Source: Minisyncoccota bacterium (GTDB lineage: Bacteria; Patescibacteriota; Minisyncoccia; Phycocordibacterales; Phycocordibacteraceae). From it: 64,000 nt of DNA. Positions 8,797 to 58,230 of the stretch are shown here, in pieces; within the stretch, counting starts at the first letter, position 1; every line of letters starts with the position of its first letter. Location of the stretch: assembly GCA_041666305.1 (NCBI GenBank), contig JBAYHD010000002.1:684-64683 (forward strand), in the 5' to 3' direction. Both the position numbers and the translations under genes were made by a program. The notes beneath the pieces were generated by a model. The model worked only from the letters and a program-made list of their open reading frames with translations, was not told the DNA's origin and searched no databases.

Positions 8797-9732
8797 ATGA
8801 ACGTACTGGGAAAGAGGATATTCGTGGGGCTGTCGGGGGGTGTGGATAGCGCCGTATCGGCCACATTACTGAAGCAGGCAGGAGCAGAAGTGACCGGCGT
8901 ATTCATCAAGGGCTGGTATCCGCCCGGAATGCCGTGCACGTGGGCGGCAGAGCGCCGTGACGCGATGCGCGTGGCCGCCCGTCTTCATATTCCGTTCCTT
9001 ACGCTCGACGCGAGCGCGGAATATAAAAAGCACGTCATCGATTATTTGCTTGCGGAGTATCGTGCAGGACGGACGCCGAATCCGGACGTGATGTGCAACA
9101 GGGAAGTGAAGTTCGGTGCCTTCTATCGCTTTGCAATGGAACACGGAGCAGATGCTATCGCCACGGGGCACTATCGCGCGGGAGGAAAAGACCAAAGCTA
9201 TTTTTTGTGGGCAGTGCCAAAAGAAATTCTGGAAGCGACAATTTTTCCGGTGGGGCATATGGAAAAAAACAAAGTGCGCGCACTAGCTTCGAAATTTAGT
9301 CTTCCGGTCTCAGAGAAGCGGGACAGTCAGGGTATCTGCTTTCTCGGTGCGGTTTCCGTCAAGGAGTTTTTGGAGCAGGAATTTGGGAATGATAATCCGG
9401 CACTTCTCTACACCATCGGCCAAAAAGTTTCCGGCGGGTATGTGATTGGGAAAGATGTCGAGAAGAAAGAAATCATTGTTTCAAAGACGCGCGCCCTTGG
9501 CGCACGGGAAGTCCGATTCACGGACGCAAACTGGTTCGGCGAACCTGCGCAGGCAGGCAAACCGATCGAAGAAGTGGAAGCGCAGTATCGATATCGCGGA
9601 GAGCGCTGCGCGGGTCGCGTAGAAGGTGATCGATTCGTTAGTTCCGAACTGCTTCCGGAACAGCCGGCGCCCGGTCAATCAATCGTCTTCTACCGCGGTA
9701 CTAATTTGGTTGGCGGCGGGATTATTTTGTAG
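8797..9732 (+). CDS. mnmA: tRNA-specific 2-thiouridylase MnmA
   Basis: PP-loop SGGVDSAV, NPDVMCN, C-terminal domain conserved. Confidence 0.85.
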   Translation: MNVLGKRIFVGLSGGVDSAVSATLLKQAGAEVTGVFIKGWYPPGMPCTWAAERRDAMRVAARLHIPFLTLDASAEYKKHVIDYLLAEYRAGRTPNPDVMCNREVKFGAFYRFAMEHGADAIATGHYRAGGKDQSYFLWAVPKEILEATIFPVGHMEKNKVRALASKFSLPVSEKRDSQGICFLGAVSVKEFLEQEFGNDNPALLYTIGQKVSGGYVIGKDVEKKEIIVSKTRALGAREVRFTDANWFGEPAQAGKPIEEVEAQYRYRGERCAGRVEGDRFVSSELLPEQPAPGQSIVFYRGTNLVGGGIIL

Positions 9733-9743
9733 GGGGCTGTGGC

Positions 9744-9873
9744 CCGGTAGAACAACATAGCATTGCTCATTGTGTCTAGCGTTAAATATACCTTTGACTT
9801 TCTATGTTTTTATCGGTCTCGAACCTTATTATTCGATTTGAGCGTAGACACGATGCTATGTTGTTCTAACCGG
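9744..9873. mobile_element. structured palindromic repeat element (MITE/Correia-like), copy 1 of 4
   Basis: TIRs CCGGTAGAACAACATAGCAT... / ...ATGCTATGTTGTTCTAACCGG; begins 12 nt after the mnmA stop; same family at 22006, 54208, 56994. Confidence 0.6.
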
Positions 9874-9891
9874 GTGGTATATTATTACCGC

Positions 9892-10302
9892 ATGAATCAC
9901 AAGCGTCTTTGGATCGCCGCAGCCATAATCGCGGTCGCCATTTTTATCGGCTTTGTCTTGTCGGTACCGCACACACGGGATGTCGGGGACAGTAAGTTTT
10001 CGCAAAATGCCGCACCGAGCGTGCCAAGTGTATCGCTTCGCGACTCATTCAAGAAAGGAGTGCACACTATCACCGGATCGGTTGAAGCCCCGAACGCCTG
10101 CGCAAGTGCGAGTGCCAAAGCATCACTCGCGGGTGAGGGGTCAGAGAGCGCCATCTTGGTCGCACTCACGCTCAAGGATGATGGTGGAGTATGCCTGCAG
10201 GTACCAACACGCGTGACATTCTCTGTGACGATTTCCGCGCCGGTCGATCTGGCGATAATCGCGACGGTTAATGGTGAATCGGCGACGACAACCGCCCCAT
10301 GA
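9892..10302 (+). CDS. hypothetical secreted/membrane-anchored protein
   Basis: track ORF 9763 starts inside the repeat element; first plausible start ATG 9892 (MNHKRLWIAAAIIAVAIF signal/TM); preceded by TGGTATATT extended -10. Confidence 0.4.
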   Translation: MNHKRLWIAAAIIAVAIFIGFVLSVPHTRDVGDSKFSQNAAPSVPSVSLRDSFKKGVHTITGSVEAPNACASASAKASLAGEGSESAILVALTLKDDGGVCLQVPTRVTFSVTISAPVDLAIIATVNGESATTTAP

Positions 10303-12786: not shown

Positions 12787-13451
12787 ATGTAAAAATAGAT
12801 CCGTCATGGGCGAGGCACTTGAAGGGCGAATTTGAAAAGGCTTATTTTGAAGAGCTGACGAGATTCGTGAAGAATGAATACAAAAACGGCGCCGTGTACC
12901 CAGCGCCGAAGAATATTTTTCGTGCATTCGACCTGTGCCCGTTCGAAAAAGTGAAAGTGGTTATCCTCGGACAGGACCCGTACCACGGCGTTCGTCAGGC
13001 GAACGGCCTCGCGTTCGCCGTGGAGAGCACCGAGAAAATTCCACCGTCGCTTCAAAATATTTTTAAAGAAATTGAGAGCGATCTTCACGGGCCGCTTGTG
13101 CATGCAGACGGCGACCTCTCGCGCTGGGCGAAACAGGGCGTGTTGCTCCTCAATGCAACACTCACCGTGCGAGCCGGCATAGCCGGCTCGCACCAGGAGA
13201 AGGGGTGGGAGCAATTTACCGACGCTGTCATCAAAGCGCTTTCGGAGGAACACGAACATCTCGTTTTTATGCTCTGGGGCAATTATGCGAAGGCGAAGGG
13301 CGCACACATCGACCGCAGTAAGCACCTCGTGCTTGAAGCTCCGCATCCCTCGCCATTCTCCGCCGCCTCCGGCTTTTTCGGCTGTAAGCACTTCTCTAAA
13401 GCAAATGACTACCTCGTCGCTCACAACGAAACCCCGATAGACTGGTTGTGA
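12783..13451 (+). CDS. ung: uracil-DNA glycosylase (family 1)
   Basis: [19 protein letters not shown] motifs; full length 222 aa. Confidence 0.85.
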   Translation: MNVKIDPSWARHLKGEFEKAYFEELTRFVKNEYKNGAVYPAPKNIFRAFDLCPFEKVKVVILGQDPYHGVRQANGLAFAVESTEKIPPSLQNIFKEIESDLHGPLVHADGDLSRWAKQGVLLLNATLTVRAGIAGSHQEKGWEQFTDAVIKALSEEHEHLVFMLWGNYAKAKGAHIDRSKHLVLEAPHPSPFSAASGFFGCKHFSKANDYLVAHNETPIDWL

Positions 13452-14029: not shown

Positions 14030-14374
14030 GACGGAGATTTAACACGATGGGCCGAGCAGGGCGTATTGCTCCTCAATGCCACGCTCACCGTGCGAGCCGG
14101 CATAGCCGGCTCGCACCAGGAGAAGGGGTGGGAACAATTCACCGATGCCGTTATCAAGGCACTCTCAGAAGAGCGCGAGCATCTCGTTTTCATGCTCTGG
14201 GGCAATTATGCGAAGGCGAAGGGCGCACACATCGACCGCAGTAAGCACCTCGTGCTTGAAGCTCCGCACCCCTCGCCATTCTCCGCCGCATCCGGCTTTT
14301 TCGGGTGCAAACATTTCAGCCGTGCGAACGAGTATCTTATTTCCCACAACGAAACCCCCATCGACTGGCTCTAG
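14030..14374 (+). pseudogene. orphan duplicate of the ung 3' half (about 115 codons, no proper start)
   Basis: aligns to ung 13107-13451 at roughly 90% nt identity with mostly synonymous differences (e.g. gacctctcgcgc vs gatttaacacga both DL(S/T)R); opens directly after the stop of the 13493 gene in the same frame. Confidence 0.7.
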
Positions 14375-19681: not shown

Positions 19682-20722
19682 ATGAGTTTTTTCAACGGTC
19701 TCTTCGGTAGGAAAAAATCGGAATCGGTCGTGTTTATCGACATCGGCACCGGCTCGGTTGCCGGCGCGTATGCGCAATTTACGCAGGGTGATCAACCCGT
19801 GATGCATTACACGCGCCGTCTTCCCATCGAAATACGAACGAGCGAACCGCATGAAGATGCGATGTTGCGCGCACTCGGCATACTCGGAGAGGTGCTTATC
19901 CGCGAAGGGGCACCGGTCCTCATGCGCAACACGGGCAGCGGGAGCGTCGATACGGTGCTCGTGTCGGTTGATGCGCCGTGGCAAAAGACATCCGTGCGCA
20001 CGGAATACTTCGAACAGAAAGAACCGTTCATCTTCAACAAAAGCATGGTGAATACGGCACTTGAAAAAACTAGCACAGCTCCGCCAGGGCAGCTTCTCGC
20101 GGATGAAAGCATCATCGGCACCATCCTGAACGGCTACGAAACGAAAGACCCGTACGGGAAAGAGACGCGCCGCGCCTCGATAATCGTATTGACATCGCTT
20201 ATCGACGAGAAAGTCGCGCAAGGCATCCAAAAAATTCTCCGCGGTCTCTATCACACAAAAAATATCCTCACTATCGCCGGCAGCAGTCTTCGCTACCAGG
20301 CGATGCGCATCGCATTCCCGCATGAGCGCGACGCGCTCATCCTGGACGCCACCGGTCCGCTTACGTCCATCGCGCTTGTGCGCAGAGACTTGCTCGTCGA
20401 CGTCGTTGAAATTCCCGTGCATAGAGCCGGGACCGCCGTGTGGCTGAAAACGCTTACGGATGAATTGGCCGAACTCGCACAGCGGTTTCCGCTTCCGCGT
20501 ACCATTTTCCTACTCGCGCGTGAGCCAAACGTCATTTCATTGCGTGAGACGCTAGATGAAGCGGAACTCGGCAAACTATGGCTCTCCGACAACCCGCCGA
20601 AGATAGTCTCGGTGCTCTCAAGCCATCTTGTCGGCCTGGTACGATCGGCCACGACCGCATCTCCGGACATATCGCTTCTTCTGATGGCGCTGTATTTTGA
20701 GCGGCGTTCCGCCGAAGATTAA
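19682..20722 (+). CDS. actin-fold ATPase-like protein (PilM/FtsA-like, tentative)
   Basis: N-terminal VVFIDIGTGSV phosphate-1-like motif; size ~346 aa; weak. Confidence 0.3.
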   Translation: MSFFNGLFGRKKSESVVFIDIGTGSVAGAYAQFTQGDQPVMHYTRRLPIEIRTSEPHEDAMLRALGILGEVLIREGAPVLMRNTGSGSVDTVLVSVDAPWQKTSVRTEYFEQKEPFIFNKSMVNTALEKTSTAPPGQLLADESIIGTILNGYETKDPYGKETRRASIIVLTSLIDEKVAQGIQKILRGLYHTKNILTIAGSSLRYQAMRIAFPHERDALILDATGPLTSIALVRRDLLVDVVEIPVHRAGTAVWLKTLTDELAELAQRFPLPRTIFLLAREPNVISLRETLDEAELGKLWLSDNPPKIVSVLSSHLVGLVRSATTASPDISLLLMALYFERRSAED

Positions 20723-20780
20723 ACGAGGTAGTGGACAAAGAGTAGGTAGACGTTTTTTGCGAAGTGGTATACTGGGGCAC

Positions 20781-21995
20781 ATGCGCAAACTTGATGATAT
20801 TATTCCGCCGTCCCGTCGGAGAGAAACGGACTCCCTTAACAGTTCAGCCGGCCGCCCAACCCTCGATCTTGCCAATAGACCATTTAAATTTCCCACTAAA
20901 ACGCTCGTTGCGGTCGTCGTCGTTGTCGTGGCTTCCATCGGCGCACTCTTTTATTTCTCCAGCGCCAAAGTTGAGGTGACGCCAAATATGGTTTCCGCTG
21001 CCGTGCAGAGTTCGTTCACCGCAAACCAGAGCACCGGAGCATTGCCGTACGAGATCATCACGGCGCAAAAGATCGCTTCACAAAGCGTCAAAAGCAGCGG
21101 CACGAAAGTCGTGAGCTCTACCGCTTCCGGAACTATCACCGTGTACAACACGCAGACGAAGGCGCAGAAGCTCATTACAAATACGCGTTTCGCTACGCTC
21201 GCGGGACTCATCTTCCGCATCCGAACCGCCATCACCGTTCCTGCTGGCACTGCTGCAAAGCCCGGTAGTGTCACGGTAGCCGTCACTGCGGATAAAGCGG
21301 GAGATTCCTACAATGTGGGTCCCACTTCCTTCACGATTCCTGGCTTCGCGGGTACGCCGCAAGCAAGCCAGGTATACGGGAAATCGAATGAAGCGATGTC
21401 CGGCGGAGCCTCCGGCAACATGCCGGTCGTAGATGCGACGGCGGAAGCACAAGCGCGCACCGCGCTCATGAGCGCACTCGCACCGGACCTCGCCTCAAGC
21501 ATTGAAGCGCAGATACCGTCCGGGTATGTGCTCGTGCCGGGAGCCGCCACAACTACCTATCAGGAACTCACGCCCGCGCCGTCGGGGACGACCGGCATGG
21601 TCGACGTGAAGGTGCAGGGGACCATCACCGCGATCGTATTCCCGAATGTCGCACTCGCCAAAGCGATTGCGACATCGGTCAGCGGCCTCGGCTATCAGGG
21701 CGAGCCGGTCACGCTCGCCTCCACGAAAACCATACAGCTCACGGCGCCGTCGGGGCTTCCGGCTCCGGACGCCGCCTCGTTCACTTTTACGCTCTCCGGC
21801 ACAGCGTCGCTTATCTACAACGTGGATCCGACGCGCATCGCCGCGGCGGTCTCCGGGAAGACCCGTTCGGCGGCCGAAGTGGCGCTCACCAACTATCCGG
21901 AGGTCAAGCGCGCCATCATCATTCTGCGGCCGTTTTGGCGCCAAACCTTCCCCCAGGACCCCTCGAGCATTTCGGTCGTGGTGGCGAAACCGTAG
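20781..21995 (+). CDS. hypothetical membrane-anchored Ser/Thr/Ala-rich extracytoplasmic protein
   Basis: start at ATG 20781 (MRKLDD) 8 nt after TGGTATACT extended -10; single TM (LVAVVVVVVASIGALFYF); track ORF 20697 start is upstream in-frame Met. Confidence 0.4.
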   Translation: MRKLDDIIPPSRRRETDSLNSSAGRPTLDLANRPFKFPTKTLVAVVVVVVASIGALFYFSSAKVEVTPNMVSAAVQSSFTANQSTGALPYEIITAQKIASQSVKSSGTKVVSSTASGTITVYNTQTKAQKLITNTRFATLAGLIFRIRTAITVPAGTAAKPGSVTVAVTADKAGDSYNVGPTSFTIPGFAGTPQASQVYGKSNEAMSGGASGNMPVVDATAEAQARTALMSALAPDLASSIEAQIPSGYVLVPGAATTTYQELTPAPSGTTGMVDVKVQGTITAIVFPNVALAKAIATSVSGLGYQGEPVTLASTKTIQLTAPSGLPAPDAASFTFTLSGTASLIYNVDPTRIAAAVSGKTRSAAEVALTNYPEVKRAIIILRPFWRQTFPQDPSSISVVVAKP

Positions 21996-22005
21996 CCCAG
22001 TTGAC

Positions 22006-22135
22006 CCGGTAGAACAACATGGCATCGTGTCTTTTGCTCCCAACAATGCAATGTCAACAAAGGCTTGTTGCTCCGGAAATTTTGATGGATAAATGGACCA
22101 TGACACAAGGAGCAATGCCATGTTGTTCTCACCGG
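22006..22135. mobile_element. structured palindromic repeat element, copy 2 of 4
   Basis: TIRs CCGGTAGAACAACATGGCAT / ATGCCATGTTGTTCTCACCGG; flanked by perfect direct repeat GTTGAC (22000-22005 and 22136-22141). Confidence 0.65.
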
Positions 22136-22197
22136 GTTGACGGCTTTTCGGATACCTGCTAGATTGATGTGGTAACTGCACTGGTAATGAATAGCAA

Positions 22198-22437
22198 ATG
22201 AGCGACGCCGACGATACAAAAGCAACGGTGACTGGAACCGTTGAAGAGGTATTGCCGAATTCGCTTTTCCGCGTTCGTCTTCCGGCAGTTCTAGAAGGAG
22301 AAGAAGGCGAGCTCAAGCTCGCCTACCTTGCAGGGAAAATGCGTTTGCACCGTATCCGCGTTCTGATGGGCGATCAGGTGGAAATGGTGATGGATCCCTA
22401 CGGGGGCCGTGCGAGGATAGTTCGCCGATTAACCTAA
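22198..22437 (+). CDS. infA: translation initiation factor IF-1
   Basis: S1-like OB fold motifs (GTVEEVLPNSLFRV, GKMRLHRIRVLMGDQVEM); small internal insertion. Confidence 0.85.
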   Translation: MSDADDTKATVTGTVEEVLPNSLFRVRLPAVLEGEEGELKLAYLAGKMRLHRIRVLMGDQVEMVMDPYGGRARIVRRLT

Positions 22438-26915: not shown

Positions 26916-26944
26916 AGAGCAAGAAACGGGGACACCCACCATTA

Positions 26945-26990
26945 ATTTCCAAACAAAAACCTCGCGTCATGCCCCGGGCGACAGGGATCC
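26945..26990 (+). repeat. island direct repeat (a): AATTTCCAAACAAAAACCTCGCGTCATGCCCCGGGCGACAGGGATCC
   Basis: five same-orientation copies at 26945, 27538, 27681, 29505, 30172. Confidence 0.65.
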
Positions 26991-27537: not shown

Positions 27538-27580
27538 ATAATTCCCAAACAAAAACCTCGCGTCATGCCCCGGCGACCTT
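27538..27580 (+). repeat. island direct repeat (b)
   Basis: ATTCCCAAACAAAAACCTCGCGTCATGCCCCGGCGACC. Confidence 0.65.
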
Positions 27581-27601
27581 CCGTCTCAGTGAAGGTAGTA
27601 T

Positions 27602-27637
27602 GTTCGTTAACTCTAACGGTCGTATCAATTAACGAAC
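27602..27637. repeat. conserved hairpin GTTCGTTAA-N18-TTAACGAAC with AACGGTCGT loop core (copy A)
   Basis: perfect 9-bp stem; near-identical second copy at 35800-35835. Confidence 0.55.
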
Positions 27638-27680
27638 AGCAGATTGCCTACGCTGCGCAAGGTTCGACCTTTCTCAAAAT

Positions 27681-27726
27681 AATTTCCAAACAAAAACCTC
27701 GCGTCATGTCCCCGGCGACAGGGGTC
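27681..27726 (+). repeat. island direct repeat (c)
   Basis: AATTTCCAAACAAAAACCTCGCGTCATGTCCCCGGCGACAGGGG. Confidence 0.65.
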
Positions 27727-29455: not shown

Positions 29456-29500
29456 GTTCCGCCCTCAACGAAAACCGTTGGAGGGCGGTTTTCATTTTTA
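29455..29500 (+). terminator. rho-independent terminator
   Basis: ccgccctcaacgaaaaccgttggagggcgg then TTTTCATTTTT. Confidence 0.65.
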
Positions 29501-29504
29501 GGCT

Positions 29505-29546
29505 CAACACAAAAAACTCGCGTCATTCCCCCGGCGACAGGGATCC
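29505..29546 (+). repeat. island direct repeat (d)
   Basis: CAACACAAAAAACTCGCGTCATTCCCCCGGCGACAGGGATCC immediately after terminator. Confidence 0.6.
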
Positions 29547-30172: not shown

Positions 30173-30215
30173 TCCCAATTTCCAAACAAAAACCTCACTT
30201 CATGCTCTGGCGATA
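30172..30215 (+). repeat. island direct repeat (e), most diverged
   Basis: AATTTCCAAACAAAAACCTCACTTCATGCTCTGGCGATATTCC. Confidence 0.5.
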
Positions 30216-30365
30216 TTCCTCAACCCATCTCTGTTGAAATTAGACTTCAACAAGGGGTGGGAATGATTATCCACAGGCCTCCCAGGACACTTGACAAATC
30301 ATGTTCGCTATGCTAGCCTGTACACAGGTCAAACCAGCTTTCCAACCATCTCTGCGGAGGTAGCG

Positions 30366-35789: not shown

Positions 35790-35799
35790 TCTCGTGCAT

Positions 35800-35835
35800 G
35801 TTCGTTAAGTCCAACGGTCGTGTGACTTAACGAAC
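35800..35835. repeat. conserved hairpin GTTCGTTAAGTC-N12-GACTTAACGAAC with AACGGTCGT loop core (copy B)
   Basis: perfect 12-bp stem; same family as 27602-27637. Confidence 0.55.
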
Positions 35836-35856
35836 ATTATTCATCGTATAACCCAC

Positions 35857-36029: not shown

Positions 36030-37139
36030 ATGGCAACAACAAAGGATTATTACAGCGTGCTGGGCGTCGATAAGAAGGCGAGCAAGGACGACATCAAGAA
36101 GGCGTTCCGTAAGCTCGCGCACAAATATCACCCCGACAAGGGCGGCACTGATGAGGCGAAATTCAAGGAGATAACCGAGGCGTACTCGGTGCTCTCCGAT
36201 GACCGTAAGCGCCGTGAATATGATACCTACGGGCAAGCATTTGCGGGCGGGCAACCTGGTTCGGCGCCCCAAGGGGGCCCCTTCGGGGGATTCGACTTCT
36301 CTCAATTCCAACAAGGCTTCCCCCAAGGGGGCCCCTTCGGGGGGCAGGGTGGCGTTGATTTTGATTTTGGTGATATTTTCGGCGACATCTTCGGCGGTCG
36401 CGGGCAACAGCGCACACCGCGCGGCCGCGATATTTCCATCGATTTGGAAGTCTCCTTTAAAGAGGCGGCTCTCGGCACAAGCCGAAGCGTACTCATCGGA
36501 AAGGTCTCCACCTGCTCGCTTTGCCACGGCACGGGAGCGAAGCCGGGCACTGAATTGGAATCCTGCACAACCTGTAACGGAAGCGGCAAAATTCACGAGA
36601 CGCGCAATTCCATACTCGGCCAGTTCAGCTCGGTGCGCGCCTGCACCATTTGTGAAGGCACCGGCAAGGTGCCGAAGGAAAAATGCACGGAGTGCAAAGG
36701 TCACGGCGTTCGCCGCAAGGAGGAAGAACTGAAAATAAATATCCCCGCCGGCGTGGATAACGGTGAAATGATTCGCATGCCGCAAAAGGGCGAGGCAATC
36801 AAAGCTGGCATCGCGGGCGATCTGTACGTGAAGATACACGTGAAGCCGCATGCGATCTTTCGTCGCGACGGAGCGAATTTGATCATGACCCTGCCGGTAA
36901 AATTGACCGATGCACTGCTCGGCACCACTGTTTCAATAGAAAGTTTGGAAGGCAAAACGCTTGAAGTAAAAATCCCGCCGATGAAGCGCGCCGAGGAACT
37001 TCTGCGCGTGGCAGGGAAGGGCATTCCGGCCGAAGGCGGCCGCGGCGACCTCATCATCCGCCTCGAGGCCGCACTTCCGCACAAGCTCTCGAGCAAAGCG
37101 AAGAAGGCTGTTGAAGACTTGAAGAACGAAGGGCTCTAA
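36030..37139 (+). CDS. dnaJ: molecular chaperone DnaJ
   Basis: J domain HPD (KYHPDKG), G/F region, four CxxCxGxG zinc-finger repeats, C-terminal domain. Confidence 0.9.
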
Positions 37140-53048: not shown

Positions 53049-53771
53049 ATGCCGTTCTCCATTAAGACCGACGCATACGAAGGACCGTTCGAGGTTCTGC
53101 TCGACCTCATTGAAGCGCGCAAACTCCTGGTCAACGACCTCACGCTCGCGAATATCACCGAGGATTACATCCAGCACGTGCGTGCGCAGGAAGCATTTCC
53201 GGTCGAAGAAACCGCGAATTTCATACAGATAGCCGCAACGCTTCTTCTCATCAAATCCAAATCGCTCATCCCCGATCTCGCGCTGACCGAGGACGAGAAT
53301 GCGGACGTGGAAGATTTGAAGCGCCGGCTCGCGGCGTACGAAAAAGTGCGCGAAGCGGCGCGCGAACTCTCGCGCATATACGGACGGACGGTAATGGCGG
53401 AAGAAGGTCAGAGGATGCCTGAAGTCGTCTTTGCGCCGTCTAAAGATCTCTCGGTAAAAGCACTCGCCGATGCGCTCGCGCGCGTGCTTGCCGCGCGCGA
53501 GGAGGTGGAAGAACTTCCAGAAGCGCGCGTGAAGCCGCTCGTGACCATTGAAGAAATGATGGATCGACTCGCGAAGCGCGTACAAAGCGCGATGACGCTT
53601 TCCTTCAAAGATTTTGCCGGCGGCCAAAAAGAAAAGATCGAGGTTATTGTCTCTTTCCTGGCTCTTCTAGAACTGGTGAAGCAAGGCGCAGTTGCTGCCG
53701 AACAACGCGATACCTACGGCGACATTCGCATCAGCCACACCGCCTCCACTGTCGTTCCGCGCTATGGATAA
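53049..53771 (+). CDS. scpA: segregation and condensation protein A
   Basis: YEGPFEVLLDLIEARKL N-terminal kleisin motif; start ATG 53049. Confidence 0.8.
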   Translation: MPFSIKTDAYEGPFEVLLDLIEARKLLVNDLTLANITEDYIQHVRAQEAFPVEETANFIQIAATLLLIKSKSLIPDLALTEDENADVEDLKRRLAAYEKVREAARELSRIYGRTVMAEEGQRMPEVVFAPSKDLSVKALADALARVLAAREEVEELPEARVKPLVTIEEMMDRLAKRVQSAMTLSFKDFAGGQKEKIEVIVSFLALLELVKQGAVAAEQRDTYGDIRISHTASTVVPRYG

Positions 53772-53772
53772 T

Positions 53773-54174
53773 ATGGATTATGCGACTGAAAAAAGGCCGA
53801 AGCGCGATTGGTGGCAGAAGGGAAGGGCGTTCGATCTTTGGTCCATCCCTCATTTTCTTTTCGGGATTCTAACGGCGCTCCTGCCGTCGCTCGTCGGCAT
53901 ATCACTCTTGACCGCACTCACGATTACGCTCGTGTGTGCGATGGCGTGGGAGATATATGAGAAATTCGTGTATATCAGGGAAACGGTCCAAAACAGCCTT
54001 CTTGATATTCTGTTACCCGTCGTCGCATTTACGATAACCTCAGAACTGATTCTTTTCTATCCTCCTCATCCCGATGACCTTCTGGTCTTGGCGACCGCCG
54101 TTTTCGTCCTGTATTTATTTACCAACATTTCCGGCTGGCGTGCATATCGTCGCCGCAACCGTGCTTTCAGGTAA
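53773..54174 (+). CDS. hypothetical integral membrane protein
   Basis: four TM helices; start ATG 53764 or 53773 at the scpA stop. Confidence 0.4.
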   Translation: MDYATEKRPKRDWWQKGRAFDLWSIPHFLFGILTALLPSLVGISLLTALTITLVCAMAWEIYEKFVYIRETVQNSLLDILLPVVAFTITSELILFYPPHPDDLLVLATAVFVLYLFTNISGWRAYRRRNRAFR

Positions 54175-54207
54175 CACTCTAATTACATCCCCAGAAGAAG
54201 CCGTTGC

Positions 54208-54340
54208 CCGGTAGGACAACTTGGCATCAGGTTTTTGCTTCGTACAACATTCAATCACGTTTCCATTGGTAAGAAGCCATAAACAAGATCCCTTGCCAAA
54301 ACAAACTATCCCCAGAAGCAATGCCAAGTAGTCCTCACCG
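54208..54340. mobile_element. structured palindromic repeat element, copy 3 of 4 (with compensatory arm changes)
   Basis: TIRs CCGGTAGGACAACTTGGCAT / ATGCCAAGTAGTCCTCACCGG; flanking CGTTGC at 54202-54207 and 54342-54347. Confidence 0.65.
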
Positions 54341-54380
54341 GGCGTTGCCGTAGAGGTGCGGCACGACTATACTGAGACCA

Positions 54381-54953
54381 ATGCTCACGCCTCCCGCCGC
54401 AGCCCACGCCCTCCTCTTTGCTTCCGGAGAACCGCTTGAAAAAAAGCAGTTGGCGAAGCTATTAGAAATTAAAGAATCGGAAATCGCTTTGGTCCTAAAA
54501 GCGCTCACGGACTCGCTCCAAAATAGCGGCGTCGTAGTCGTGGAGACTGATACTGAAGTAGAGCTTCGCACGGCTCCCGAGGCGTCTATCATCGTGAAGA
54601 AACTCCGCGAGAGCGAGCTCGCACGCGACCTCGGGAAAGCAAGTTTGGAAACGCTTGCGGTCATCGCGTACGGTACCGGCCCCAACGGGGCCCCCTTCGG
54701 GGGCACGACGCGCGGAGAGATAGATTGGGTGCGCGGCGTCAATTCTTCAACGTCGTTGCGGACTCTTCTCATGCGCGGACTTATTGAGGGGAAGGAGGAT
54801 GAACGCGACAAACGCCGTATCCGCTACAGCCTCACTACCGAAGCGTTCGCGCATCTGGGCATAAAAAATGCATCGGAGCTCCCGCGAGCAAGGGAGCTCA
54901 GTGCCGCGGCGGGAAATATCATCAAAGAAGAATCCGCGGCAGAAGCTGCATAA
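54381..54953 (+). CDS. scpB: segregation and condensation protein B
   Basis: LLFASGEPL, winged-helix repeats; contains ~8-aa GPNGAPFGG insertion relative to typical ScpB (memory of family). Confidence 0.8.
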   Translation: MLTPPAAAHALLFASGEPLEKKQLAKLLEIKESEIALVLKALTDSLQNSGVVVVETDTEVELRTAPEASIIVKKLRESELARDLGKASLETLAVIAYGTGPNGAPFGGTTRGEIDWVRGVNSSTSLRTLLMRGLIEGKEDERDKRRIRYSLTTEAFAHLGIKNASELPRARELSAAAGNIIKEESAAEAA

Positions 54954-55907: not shown

Positions 55908-56987
55908 ATGATCACTTCGAACATCATCAAGGTATTCATTCCCGCGACGGCATCGTTCGCCGTGGGAATTCTGTTAGCGCCGCTCCTCACGCATTATTTG
56001 TACAAATATCGAGTGTGGAAAAAAGTGGCGAGCAAGACGGCGCTCGACGGTACGCCGGCGGTCGAATTTGAGAAGCTTCGCACAAGCGTGCACACCGGTA
56101 CCGAGACCTCCACACCGAGGATGGGCGGTATTCTCATATGGACGAGCGTCACAATCGTCACGCTCGGTGTCTGGCTTCTTGCCCGTCTCATTCCCATCCC
56201 GCTCACTGAAAAACTCGATTTCCTCAGCCGCAGCCAAACGTGGATACCGCTTTTTTCTCTGCTTGCGGGAGCACTCATGGGCCTCGTGAACGATATTCTG
56301 GACATTCACCCCTCGGGTGAACGCGGCGTGCGACTACGCACCCGATTACTTTTTGTCACCGTTGTTTCAGCGTTCATCGGTTGGTGGTTCTATGCAAAAC
56401 TCGGCGTTGATGCCATCGGCATCCCCGGCGACGGCACATTCACGCTCGGTGCGCTTATCATCCCTCTTTTTGTCATCATCACGCTCGGATTGTATGCCGG
56501 CGGCGTCATCGACGGTATTGATGGACTCGCCGGCGGGGTTTTCAGTACTGCCTTCATGGCATACGCCGGCATTGCGTATTTTCAGAATCAAATTAACTTG
56601 GCGGCCTTTTCCGCCACGCTCACGGGCGCAATTCTCGCCTTCCTTTGGTTCAACATCCCTCCCGCGCGATTCTGGATGACCGAGACCGGAACTATGGGTC
56701 TCACTATGACGCTCGCGGTCATCGCGTTTTTGACCGACACGCCGGGGAACGGCTATGGCCTCAGCGCACTGCCCATCATTGCGTTCCCGCTCGTCATCAC
56801 CGTCCTTTCAAATATCATTCAAGTGACTTCCAAAAAACTGCGCGGCGGAAAAAAAGTATTTCGCATAGCGCCCCTGCACCACCACTTTGAGGCTATCGGC
56901 TGGCCGTCCTATAAAGTGACGATGCGCTATTGGATCATTTCCATCGTGTGCGCTATCGTCGGCATGACCGTCGCGCTTCTCAAGTAA
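55908..56987 (+). CDS. mraY: phospho-N-acetylmuramoyl-pentapeptide transferase
   Basis: VIDGIDGLAGG, APLHHHFE motifs, 10 TM helices. Confidence 0.9.
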   Translation: MITSNIIKVFIPATASFAVGILLAPLLTHYLYKYRVWKKVASKTALDGTPAVEFEKLRTSVHTGTETSTPRMGGILIWTSVTIVTLGVWLLARLIPIPLTEKLDFLSRSQTWIPLFSLLAGALMGLVNDILDIHPSGERGVRLRTRLLFVTVVSAFIGWWFYAKLGVDAIGIPGDGTFTLGALIIPLFVIITLGLYAGGVIDGIDGLAGGVFSTAFMAYAGIAYFQNQINLAAFSATLTGAILAFLWFNIPPARFWMTETGTMGLTMTLAVIAFLTDTPGNGYGLSALPIIAFPLVITVLSNIIQVTSKKLRGGKKVFRIAPLHHHFEAIGWPSYKVTMRYWIISIVCAIVGMTVALLK

Positions 56988-56993
56988 CCATGC

Positions 56994-57127
56994 CCGGTAG
57001 GACAACATGGCATCGTGTCGTCTTTGCTCCAGTCGTGAGCAGGGCAACAAGCGTTCGTTGCCATTCGTACGTTTTAAACATTATGGAGATGCTGACACAT
57101 GGAGTAATGCCATGTTGTCCTCACCGG
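56994..57127. mobile_element. structured palindromic repeat element, copy 4 of 4
   Basis: TIRs CCGGTAGGACAACATGGCAT / ATGCCATGTTGTCCTCACCGG; begins 6 nt after the mraY stop and ends 2 nt before the ftsW ATG. Confidence 0.65.
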
Positions 57128-57129
57128 GT

Positions 57130-58230
57130 ATGAGAAAGTTCGTCTCCGGCGATCGCATGTTCTTTATGCTCGTCCTGGCCATTGTGCTTTTGGGGCTTGC
57201 GATTTTTTCCTCCGCGGCGCTTGGACTTCTCGCACGCGAGAGCAGTTCGGTATCAAAAGACATCATGCTCCAGGCCGGACTCGGTTTTGGTCTCGGATTC
57301 CTAGCCCTTCTCATTGCACGCGCCATTCCGCTTGTGCACATTAAGCGCTTCGCACCGTATATTTACGGAGCCTCCATCCTATTTACCGCGCTTGTGTTCG
57401 TGCCCGGCATCGGACTGCATGCAAATGGCGCTACCCGCTGGATAAGCCTCGGATTCACCACGGTCCAGCCGTCTGAATTTCTGAAGATCGGTTTTGTCAT
57501 TGCGCTTGCCTGGTGGCTCACTCCGCGTGCGCGGCAACTTTCCAGTTACAAAAGCGGGCTGTTCCCCTTTATCATTATGCTCGCTATTCCCACGGCGCTC
57601 TTGCTCGCTCAGCCGAATACGTCCACGACGCTCCTCATCATCGTTACCGGCGCAGTCATGTATTTTGCCGCGGGAGCGCCGTGGCGCGACTTCGGCATTC
57701 TCGCACTGACCGCGATCATCGGGCTTGTCATTATCGCCATGATCCGGCCGTACGTGCTTGAACGCGTAAAAACATTCATCGATCCATCCGCCAATTCGCT
57801 TTCGAGCGGCTATCAAATACAGCAATCGCTCATCGCCATCGGTTCGGGCGGTTTGCTCGGCAGGGGATTCGGTCAAAGCGTAGAGAAATTCAATTATCTG
57901 CCGGAACCTGACGGTGATTCCGTGTTCGCCGTGTTTGCGGAAGAAACCGGATTTCTCGGCGCCATTTTTCTACTGGCGCTTTTTGTCGCGCTCGCGGCAC
58001 GCGGTATCGTGATAGCGGGGGATTCGCGCGATCTTTTCGGCGGTCTCATTGCGCTCGGATTTTCATTCATCATCATTTTCCAAGCGTTCGTCAATATGTG
58101 CGCGATGCTCGGCATCATCCCGCTCACCGGCTTGCCGCTGCCATTCGTTTCTCACGGCGGCACGGCGCTCATGGCTGCCCTTATTATGTGCGGCCTCATT
58201 CTCAATGTCGCGGCTCATCGTAAAAACTAG
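57130..58230 (+). CDS. ftsW: SEDS family peptidoglycan glycosyltransferase FtsW/RodA
   Basis: 10 TM, conserved SEDS motifs; start ATG 57130 (MRKFVSG); track ORF 57007 starts inside the repeat element. Confidence 0.85.
   Translation: MRKFVSGDRMFFMLVLAIVLLGLAIFSSAALGLLARESSSVSKDIMLQAGLGFGLGFLALLIARAIPLVHIKRFAPYIYGASILFTALVFVPGIGLHANGATRWISLGFTTVQPSEFLKIGFVIALAWWLTPRARQLSSYKSGLFPFIIMLAIPTALLLAQPNTSTTLLIIVTGAVMYFAAGAPWRDFGILALTAIIGLVIIAMIRPYVLERVKTFIDPSANSLSSGYQIQQSLIAIGSGGLLGRGFGQSVEKFNYLPEPDGDSVFAVFAEETGFLGAIFLLALFVALAARGIVIAGDSRDLFGGLIALGFSFIIIFQAFVNMCAMLGIIPLTGLPLPFVSHGGTALMAALIMCGLILNVAAHRKN

What the first reader, a model, noticed from the sequence alone, without database searches (positions are those of the whole stretch)
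54208..54340. Compensatory (covarying) substitutions in both arms of repeat copy 3 preserve the long stem
Copies 1, 2 and 4 have 5' arm ...CAACATGGCAT and 3' arm ATGCCATGTTG. Copy 3 instead has 5' ...CAACTTGGCAT and 3' ATGCCAAGTAG, so A->T in one arm is matched by T->A in the other. Similarly copy 1 has CATAGCAT/ATGCTATG where the others have CATGGCAT/ATGCCATG. Matched changes on both arms mean the duplex, not the primary sequence, is conserved. Two processes could give this: selection on an RNA or cruciform structure, or hairpin-templated repair during transposition. Either is biologically informative.
Basis: seen in the sequence. Interest (0 to 1): 0.7.

Follow-up and report, generated by a model that had tools for sequence, protein, structure and literature searches.

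The report
Mobile hairpin repeats with covarying arms
The matched base changes are real: the repeat is a small mobile hairpin element, common in Patescibacteria (candidate phyla radiation) bacteria and usually inserted exactly at a gene's start codon, whose two arms stay complementary while their sequence changes.

Summary
The window holds four 132-136 nt copies of an intergenic repeat. Each has 21-bp arms (CCCGGTAGRACAACWTRGCAT / ATGCYAWGTWGTYCT-N-ACCGGG) with a one-base bulge. Three arm positions are compensated among the four copies. Copy 3 also carries one uncompensated A·A mismatch.

Pattern scans found 12 more copies in Patescibacteria genomes and over 120 in metagenomes. Across 98 distinct arm pairs, the unconstrained inner helix is 97-100% paired with up to six pair types per position (0/500 shuffles reach this).

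The element is a MITE-like insertion. It is flanked by 3-5 bp target duplications, and six syntenic relatives have clean empty sites for copies 3 and 4. Tandem and nested insertions also occur. In the unbiased genome sample, 12 of 12 copies sit exactly at the downstream gene's ATG, which is duplicated (YATG).

Orthologous copies keep 41-43 of 43 arm bases while synonymous sites are saturated. This points to selection on the hairpin where it sits. The conserved bulge and mismatches argue against arm-to-arm templated repair.

No Rfam family matches, and no paper found describes it. RNA-level versus DNA-level selection, and the transposase, remain unresolved.

The parts
9743..9874 (+). Copy 1 (132 nt), between mnmA (8797-9732) and a 136-aa ORF (9892-10302). 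Arms are 9743-9763 and 9853-9874; the bulge is A9868. It carries the compensated A-U pair (CATAGCAT/ATGCTATG).
9740..9742 (+). Left copy of the TGG direct repeat flanking copy 1. The right copy is at 9875-9877 and overlaps the TG of TGGTATATT, which I read as an extended -10; the promoter scan found no promoter-like site in 9500-10100.
   Evidence: read from the sequence; (scan found none)
22005..22136 (+). Copy 2 (132 nt), between a 432-aa ORF (20697-21995) and infA (22198-22437). Arms are 22005-22025 and 22115-22136; the bulge is C22130.
22137..22165 (+). Promoter-like site TTGACG-17-TAGATT beginning at the first base after copy 2. The TTGA duplication (22001-22004 and 22137-22140) overlaps its -35 hexamer.
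54207..54342 (+). Copy 3 (136 nt; the finding), between a small membrane ORF (53764-54174) and scpB (54381-54953). Arms are 54207-54227 and 54321-54342. The compensated U-A pair is 54221:54327, the uncompensated A·A is 54218·54330, and the bulge is C54336.
54202..54206 (+). Left copy of the 5-bp target duplication CGTTG; the right copy is at 54343-54347. Syntenic relatives L142, L143 and L140 have a single CGTTG and no element.
54345..54373 (+). Promoter-like site TTGCCG-17-TATACT starting 3 nt after copy 3. Its -10 hexamer ends 7 nt before the scpB ATG, a leaderless-type arrangement.
   Evidence: conserved in relatives
56993..57128 (+). Copy 4 (136 nt), inserted between the mraY stop (TAA, 56985-56987) and the ftsW start. 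Arms are 56993-57013 and 57107-57128; the bulge is C57122. The stem is perfect.
56990..56992 (+). Left ATG of the duplicated start codon. The right copy is TATG at 57129-57132, whose ATG (57130) is the ftsW start. Six syntenic relatives have TAA-N2-3-(T)ATG or overlapping ATGA with no element.
   Evidence: N-terminus MRKFVSGDR aligns with MKF(A/V)SGDR of relatives

Best explanation
The repeat is a member of a large, apparently undescribed family of non-autonomous, MITE-like hairpin elements in Patescibacteria (Paceibacteria/Kaiserbacteria-type genomes).

**Anatomy.** An 8-bp outer helix was fixed by my search patterns (CCCGGTAG / CTA(N)CCGGG). Related forms have CCCCG or CCTCG ends. Next comes a small bulge or internal loop. 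Then comes a ~12-bp inner helix whose sequence differs between subfamilies but stays complementary. The interior is 80-110 nt, poorly conserved, and contains further small helices.

**Shown.**
- It inserts with a 3-5 bp target duplication.
- The CCCGGTAG-type elements are found overwhelmingly at YATG, where the ATG is the start codon of the downstream gene. The gene therefore keeps an intact start codon one base after the foot of the hairpin.

**Inferred: why matched arm changes arise.**
- The long stem is under purifying selection where it sits. Single-arm mutations are removed or later compensated.
- Variants that arose in source copies are spread by transposition, as with copy 3's U-A pair.

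**Inferred: most likely reason for the selection.** A 130-nt insertion between expression signals and an SD-less start codon is tolerable only if it folds on itself in the transcript. That would juxtapose the flanks and keep the element from pairing with the start region.

**Inferred: mobilisation.** A structure-specific requirement for mobilisation may add to this. The mobilising enzyme is unknown; a DDE-type transposase acting in trans would fit the duplications.
For: **Repeat and stem.** There are four copies, with z-scores of -4.8 to -7.7.

**Family size.**
- 12 true copies were found in Patescibacteria MAGs.

**Covariation.**
- Alignment A2 is 93.6% paired versus 79.3% in shuffles (0/500). 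Slid registers give 30-42%.
- Alignment A3 has 19 pairs changed on both sides versus 6.9 in shuffles (0/500).

**Mobility.**
- Flanking duplications are TGG, TTGA, CGTTG and (Y)ATG.
- Copy 4's site is empty in 6 of 6 syntenic relatives.
- Copy 3's site is empty, with a single CGTTG, in 3 relatives.
- L065 has tandem elements sharing TATG. L051 has a nested element with a CGGG duplication.
- The same subfamily lies upstream of unrelated genes.
- Related elements have TCAA, TGAA, AAAA and TATAA duplications.

**Start-codon adjacency.** In the sample not constrained on flanks, 12 of 12 copies are at a start codon, each followed by a real ORF.

**Constraint in place.** Orthologous copies keep 41-43 of 43 arm bases. 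The interior is 72% identical and codon position 3 is 47-55% identical. L077 has a compensated GTATC/GATAC change in an inner helix.

**Orientation.** All 16 bulged copies are co-oriented with the downstream gene.

**No SD.** 122 of 136 left flanks have no SD-like motif within 20 nt, and the 3' arm contains none.
Against: - No autonomous element or transposase with these ends was found in about 1.1 Mb of held sequence.
- RNA-level selection is not demonstrated. In the inner helix, G·U (about 11) versus A·C (about 5-6) is not significant.
- Copies 2 and 3 lie just upstream of promoter-like -35 boxes. They may not be part of the downstream mRNA at all.
- In the unbulged subfamilies about 20% of elements have the arm asymmetry reversed relative to the gene.
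- The metagenome sample was collected with a pattern that forced the ATG flanks and the outer helix. Only the 12 genome hits plus 4 window copies are unbiased on those points.
- The orthology of L005/L096/L077 rests on one gene family.
Confidence: 0.7

Rival explanations
1. The arms are ordinary terminal inverted repeats that covary only because both ends must bind the same transposase, which co-evolves with them in each lineage. No hairpin is needed.
For: - Arms are similar within a genome and differ between genomes (window copies; L029, L120 and L121 pairs).
- Target duplications imply a transposase.
Against: - Dozens of distinct inner-arm sequences would need as many binding specificities.
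- Internal helices that are not terminal also covary (b: GCUCC/GGAGC, 94.7% paired).
- Orthologous, presumably immobile, copies keep their arms while the interior and synonymous sites diverge.
Confidence: 0.12
2. Complementarity is restored mechanically. One arm templates the other in a fold-back intermediate, or mismatches in an extruded hairpin are repaired, so no selection on structure is needed.
For: - The inner helix is almost free of mismatches.
- The element is mobile.
Against: - Asymmetries between arms persist across copies and genomes. These are the one-base bulge, always on the 3' arm of the bulged subfamily, the tandem G·U/A·C mismatch, and the A·A mismatch shared by copy 3, L005 and L096.
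- Half-compensated states exist (L016 A·C, L017 G·U).
Confidence: 0.05
3. It is a REP/REPIN-type element mobilised by a RAYT or IS200-like Y1 transposase that recognises GTAG plus a hairpin in single-stranded DNA.
For: - There is a GTAG next to the stem, a long hairpin, and compensatory changes as reported for REPINs (PMC3116915).
- A Y1_Tnp gene occurs in a syntenic relative (L142 4637-5344; Pfam E=1.4e-7), with homologues in L136 and L126.
Against: - The elements make 3-5 bp target duplications. As far as I know, IS200/IS605 and REPIN mobility does not (my own knowledge).
- The Y1 gene in L142 is flanked by a different hairpin (GTGCATACC-TGG-TATGCAC).
- No Y1 gene is present in the window.
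Confidence: 0.05
4. It is a vertically inherited cis-regulatory RNA leader, or an invertible promoter, not a mobile element.
For: - It lies immediately 5' of start codons.
- Orthologous copies are conserved.
- Interiors carry -10-like TATAAT/CATTAT motifs.
- Arm type and interior orientation are partly uncoupled.
Against: - Target duplications, empty sites, and nested and tandem copies show insertion.
- The downstream genes are unrelated.
- No Rfam hit was found.
- No locus was seen in both orientations among duplicate samples (L065/L067/L093, L131/L136).
Confidence: 0.05

Closest known systems
Correia / NEMIS elements of Neisseria (MITEs)
   Same: - Size is about 100-155 bp with long terminal inverted repeats and a target duplication.
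- They are dispersed next to genes and co-transcribed.
- They fold into long hairpins that can be RNase III substrates and can affect neighbouring gene expression (PMC2649163, PMC10969869).
   Different: - Correia elements duplicate TA and have 26-bp repeats of fixed sequence with an IHF site (my own knowledge).
- Here the duplication is 3-5 bp, mostly YATG at a start codon.
- The inner arm sequence varies freely between subfamilies.
- The host phylum is Patescibacteria.
- There is no sequence similarity.
[quoted passage not shown]
   Same: - Both form a long hairpin made of two inverted conserved ends with a less conserved spacer of constrained length.
- Compensatory changes on the two sides are common (PMC3116915).
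- A GTAG-type motif lies at the stem foot (my own knowledge for REPs).
   Different: - REPINs are not reported to make target duplications and are tied to a RAYT gene.
- These elements make clean 3-5 bp duplications, and no linked Y1 gene was found.
ERIC / other enterobacterial intergenic hairpin repeats
   Same: They are ~127-bp imperfect palindromes in transcribed intergenic regions, with orientation-dependent effects on mRNA (PMC10969869).
   Different: The sequence, the TA target and the host range all differ. ERIC elements show no start-codon adjacency.
Integron attC sites
   Same: Both have conserved short outer boxes, a variable but complementary inner stem, extra-helical bases that mark one strand, and a variable loop of 60-140 nt.
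   Different: - There are no RYYYAAC/GTTRRRY boxes.
- They are not in cassette arrays and no integrase is nearby.
- They sit upstream of housekeeping genes and are flanked by direct duplications.

Membership tests
MITE (miniature inverted-repeat transposable element) | Short (about 50-500 bp), with no transposase gene | tested here: met
   - Window copies are 132-136 nt and the family ranges from 116 to 148 nt.
- Element length shows no frame bias, and ORFs from the left ATG mostly stop early.
MITE (miniature inverted-repeat transposable element) | Terminal inverted repeats | tested here: met
   The arms are 21 bp, reach the element ends, and are 93-100% complementary.
MITE (miniature inverted-repeat transposable element) | Target-site duplication, with empty sites in relatives | tested here: met
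   - Duplications are TGG, TTGA, CGTTG and (Y)ATG.
- Empty orthologous sites were found for copies 3 and 4.
- More distant empty sites exist (L136, L079).
MITE (miniature inverted-repeat transposable element) | Multiple dispersed copies per genome | tested here: met
   There are 4 copies in 64 kb, and 2-3 strict matches in each of four MAGs.
MITE (miniature inverted-repeat transposable element) | An autonomous IS with the same ends that supplies the transposase | tested here: not met
   No longer element with matching ends was found in about 1.1 Mb held. This is a small sample, so absence is weak evidence.
REP/REPIN | Mobility without target duplication, linked to a RAYT (Y1) gene flanked by the same repeats | tested here: not met
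   - Clean duplications are present.
- The one Y1 gene seen nearby is flanked by an unrelated hairpin.
Correia/NEMIS | TA duplication and a conserved 26-bp repeat sequence | tested here: not met
   The duplications are 3-5 bp and not TA, and the ends are CCCGGTAG. The Correia consensus is recalled from memory and was not aligned here.
Any Rfam 15 RNA family | Covariance-model match at or near the gathering score | tested here: not met
   - Only tRNAs were found in the window and in 8 loci.
- The permissive scan of copy 4 gave one chance-level hit, E=1.
Integron attC | R''/R' core boxes, cassette array and a nearby integrase | tested here: not met
   The boxes are absent from the sequence. Copies are scattered among housekeeping operons.

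The most novel reading that the evidence does not exclude
The hairpins are more than tolerated insertions. Their geometry is a stop codon or transcript 5' end a few bases before the stem foot, and an SD-less AUG one base after it. That geometry could mean that Patescibacteria ribosomes initiate across a 130-nt hairpin by a shunt- or hop-like transfer, as in caulimovirus shunting or T4 gene 60. Alternatively, the conserved outer helix plus the single spacer base could be a processing site that releases leaderless mRNAs starting at AUG. The element family would then have spread because this initiation mode makes start codons safe landing sites.
Probability: 0.12. Interest if true: 0.85.

Novelty: new variant of a known kind. 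Interest (0 to 1): 0.6.

Why it matters
- It adds a large repeat family to a phylum whose mobile elements are barely described. The 2024 MITE review I checked mentions neither CPR bacteria nor start-codon insertions.
- It gives an unusually clean natural experiment on compensatory evolution: many subfamilies, all intermediate states, orthologous copies and empty sites.
- It raises a concrete question about translation start. Essential genes (ftsW, mreB, rnc, recO, topA, ftsX) keep working with a very stable hairpin ending one base before an AUG that has no Shine-Dalgarno sequence.
- The elements are also practical markers for strain-level comparison, and a likely source of gene-start miscalls. 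One gene caller started ftsW inside copy 4.

Tried and rejected
- **uORF coupling.** In copy 4 the left ATG opens a 47-codon frame that ends in TGA overlapping the ftsW ATG. Across 130 elements, however, 76 such frames stop in the 5' half, and element length shows no frame bias. Rejected as a general mechanism.
- **SD upstream of the left ATG, bridged by the hairpin.** 122 of 136 flanks have no SD-like motif.
- **In-element SD plus ATG (GGAG-N7-ATG in the 3' arm).** The ATG is replaced by AAG or GCG in about 40% of subfamily members.
- **Ancient orthology across subfamilies.** 16 pairs of elements precede homologous genes. By my rough estimate, about 13 are expected by chance.
- **RNA versus DNA from G·U versus A·C counts.** About 11 versus 5-6, which is inconclusive.
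- **Inverton.** No locus was seen in two orientations. GC-rich side versus arm type was only a crude proxy.
- **Y1 transposase link.** Not supported.
- **Autonomous partner.** None found.
- **Viral contigs.** 0 matches.
- **Literature.** Full-text search for both end motifs returned only unrelated papers among the 15 of 36 hits listed.
- **Internal promoter.** The consensus scan found none inside the window copies.

Full report
**1. What is at the coordinates**

The finding lies inside a 136-nt element at 54207-54342, between a small membrane ORF and scpB.
- An inverted-repeat search finds arms 54213-54227 and 54321-54335.
- Read in full, the arms are CCCGGTAGGACAACTTGGCAT and ATGCCAAGTAGTCCTCACCGGG. 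They pair over 21 positions with one bulged C (54336).

Three more copies lie at 9743-9874, 22005-22136 and 56993-57128.
- All four are on the + strand and intergenic between + strand genes: mnmA | ORF, ORF | infA, ORF | scpB, and mraY | ftsW.
- The arm patterns have no expected chance matches.
- Each copy folds far better than shuffles, with z from -4.8 to -7.7 on either strand.

**2. The reported substitutions**

Both reported pairs are real.
- Copy 3 has U-A where the others have A-U (54221:54327).
- Copy 1 has A-U where the others have G-C.

Two things were missed.
- There is a third compensated position: A-U in copies 1-2 and G-C in copies 3-4.
- Copy 3 also has an uncompensated change (GTTGT to GTAGT), which gives an A·A mismatch.

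**3. A larger sample**

*Genome scan.* The pattern fixed only part of each arm and no flanks. It returned 14 stretches.
- Two are chance hits with no stem, from a gammaproteobacterium and a cyanobacterium.
- Twelve are true copies in Patescibacteria MAGs labelled Kaiserbacteria, Adlerbacteria, Paceibacterota, Saccharibacteria and unclassified.

*Metagenome scan.* The pattern fixed the outer 8 bp and the ATG flanks but left the inner arms free.

*What the family looks like.* There are 136 distinct elements across these sets.
- The outer helix is CCCGGTAG/CTA(N)CCGGG.
- Next is a small bulge or internal loop.
- Then comes an inner helix whose sequence differs between subfamilies. Examples are GGACAACATGGCAT, GGACAATTTCGAAT, GTGAAATTTCGAC, GTGAAATGTGCCTT and GTGATCCCTCACCTT.

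**4. Covariation statistics**

*Arms only.* This alignment holds 98 distinct rows, with the bulge base removed. Eight elements with a shifted register, the off-register L027 and one chance hit (L041) were left out.
- 93.6% of cells pair, against 79.3% in shuffles (0/500).
- 319 cells are changed on both sides, against 104 in shuffles.
- Slid registers give 30-42% pairing.
- The eight inner-helix columns, which no search pattern constrained, are 97-100% paired with four to six pair types each.

*Full-length subfamily.* This alignment holds 19 sequences from the window's own subfamily.
- The long stem is 97% paired, with 7 pairs changed on both sides.
- A second helix (GCUCC/GGAGC) is 94.7% paired, with 4 of 5 pairs changed on both sides.
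- A third helix (CGUGUC/GACACG) is about 80% paired. It crosses the second helix, so the two are probably alternatives.
- At the copy-1 position all four states occur: G-C (16 sequences), G·U (L017), A·C (L016) and A-U (copy 1).

**5. It is an insertion**

*Direct repeats flank each window copy*.

| Copy | Flanking repeat |
|---|---|
| 1 | TGG |
| 2 | TTGA |
| 3 | CGTTG |
| 4 | ATG / (T)ATG |

*Empty sites in relatives.* I fetched six syntenic loci from relatives whose ScpB is 82-85% identical.
- All six lack copy 4. There mraY and ftsW are joined as TAA-N2-3-(T)ATG or as overlapping ATGA. The window has TAAcc-ATG-[136 nt]-T-ATG, with the FtsW N-terminus unchanged.
- Three of the six align across the copy-3 site and have a single CGTTG there. 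Copy 3 therefore made a 5-bp duplication.

*Further signs of mobility.*
- L065 has two elements in tandem sharing TATG.
- L051 has a small related element nested inside another, with a CGGG duplication.
- L124 and L116 have adjacent elements whose outer helices differ (CCTCGCAG/CTGCGGGG, and CCCCGTAG at the 5' end in L116). In L124 these changes are themselves compensated.
- Elements found without any flank constraint have TCAA, TGAA, AAAA and TATAA duplications.
- Members of one subfamily, arms and interior alike, precede unrelated genes. L013 precedes an exonuclease-like gene and L016 a deformylase-like gene. Copy 4 resembles both.

**6. Where it lands**

In the genome-scan sample, which did not constrain flanks, all 12 copies are flanked by (T/C)ATG on the right, 11 of them also by ATG on the left (L016 has CTG), and the right-hand ATG opens a real ORF.
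- The proteins I recognise from their N-termini as MreB, RNase III, RecR, RecO, FtsX and a penicillin-binding protein, among others.
- About half of all elements lie within 20 nt of the preceding gene's stop codon.
- The 3' arm contains no Shine-Dalgarno-like sequence.
- 122 of 136 left flanks have none either.

These genes therefore start one base after a very stable stem, without an SD.

In the window only copy 4 is of this kind.
- Copies 2 and 3 end at promoter-like sites: TTGACG-17-TAGATT from 22137 and TTGCCG-17-TATACT from 54345. Their duplications overlap the TTG of the -35 hexamer.
- The duplicated targets all contain ATG, TTG or GTG. I cannot tell target preference from survivorship.

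**7. Selection or repair**

*Constraint in place.* Three elements (L005, L096, L077) precede the same methyltransferase gene, whose products are 69-86% identical.

| Compared region | Identity between copies |
|---|---|
| Arms | 41-43 of 43 bases |
| Interior | 72% |
| Codon positions 1+2 | 88-91% |
| Codon position 3 | 47-55% |

- L077 carries a compensated change in an inner helix, GTGTC/GACAC to GTATC/GATAC.
- This is constraint acting where the element sits, not only on source copies.

*Evidence against templated repair.* Arm asymmetries are inherited faithfully.
- The bulge is on the 3' arm in all 16 copies of the bulged subfamily.
- The unbulged subfamilies keep a tandem G·U/A·C mismatch.
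- Copy 3's A·A mismatch recurs in L005 and L096.
- Repair that templates one arm from the other should remove all of these.

I therefore favour selection on the duplex. Copy 3's compensated pair is an inherited subfamily marker.

**8. RNA or DNA**

This is unresolved.
- *Points toward a transcript-level effect:* strict co-orientation of the bulged subfamily with the downstream gene (16 of 16), and slightly more G·U than A·C in the inner helix.
- *Points that weaken it:*
  - The G·U excess is not significant.
  - About 20% of unbulged elements have the arm asymmetry reversed.
  - Two window copies may lie outside the downstream transcript.

My working model is that a self-contained hairpin is the least disruptive form for an insertion at a start codon.
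- It would fold on itself and bring the flanks together.
- It would keep the element from pairing with the start region.
- This is inference, not a tested result.

**9. Comparison with known systems**

- No Rfam 15 family matches.
- Neither a text search for the end motifs nor a MITE review turned up this family.
- The nearest analogues are Correia/NEMIS and ERIC MITEs, which are co-transcribed hairpins and in some cases RNase III substrates (PMC2649163, PMC10969869).
- REPINs are also close, and compensatory changes across their hairpin were noted (PMC3116915).
- The family differs from all of these in several ways:
  - the 3-5 bp, mostly YATG, duplication;
  - the start-codon position;
  - the free variation of the inner arm;
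  - the host phylum.
- A Y1 transposase gene in one relative (L142) is flanked by an unrelated hairpin, and Y1 transposition would not explain the duplications (my own knowledge).

**10. Verdict**

- The object is a new variant of a known kind, a MITE-like hairpin repeat, with an unusual and unexplained affinity for start codons.

Noticed in passing
window 54672-54703; also 36258-36289 and 36312-36343: A short GC-rich palindromic repeat (GGCCCC..GGGGCCCCTTCGGGGG) lies inside coding sequence. In scpB it adds 8 in-frame residues (GPNGAPFG). Five of six close ScpB homologues lack them and one (P0005, GPDGAPFG) has them. This looks like a second, in-frame mini-insertion family.
   Followed up: partly
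window 26944-26986, 27540-27582, 27681-27723, 29500-29542, 30177-30219: Five copies of a ~43-59 nt direct repeat (AATTTCCAAACAAAAACCTCGCGTCATGCCCCGG...) occur within 3.3 kb. It may be a shared promoter or leader, or another repeat family.
   Followed up: no
window 27600-27638 and 35798-35836: Two copies of a 39-nt hairpin (ATGTTCGTTAA...TTAACGAACA), 87% identical.
   Followed up: no
window 13107-13406 and 14030-14329: A 300-nt direct repeat, 86% identical and 923 nt apart.
   Followed up: no
L142 4588-5376: An IS200-like Y1 transposase gene (235 aa; Pfam Y1_Tnp, E=1.4e-7) is flanked on both sides by the hairpin GTGCATACC-TGG-TATGCAC. It is inserted upstream of scpB in a syntenic relative. Homologues occur in L136 and L126.
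   Followed up: partly
window 54368-54383 (and L142, L143): The -10-like TATACT ends 7 nt before the scpB ATG and no SD is present. Together with SD-less junctions such as TAAccTATG, this suggests leaderless or SD-independent initiation is common in this organism.
   Followed up: partly
L051 1583-1730; L065 2637-2912: L051 holds a hairpin element nested inside another, with CCCCG/CGGGG ends and a CGGG duplication. L065 holds two elements in tandem separated only by the shared TATG.
   Followed up: partly
window 57007-58230 versus 57130-58230: Two public gene calls for ftsW differ. One starts at an ATG inside copy 4 (407 aa) and the other at the true start (366 aa), so the element causes gene-start miscalls.
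   Followed up: yes
window 9764-9852 (copy 1 interior): In copy 1 the two short inner boxes (GCTC and GTGTCTA, with their partners) are in the opposite order from the other subfamily members.
   Followed up: no
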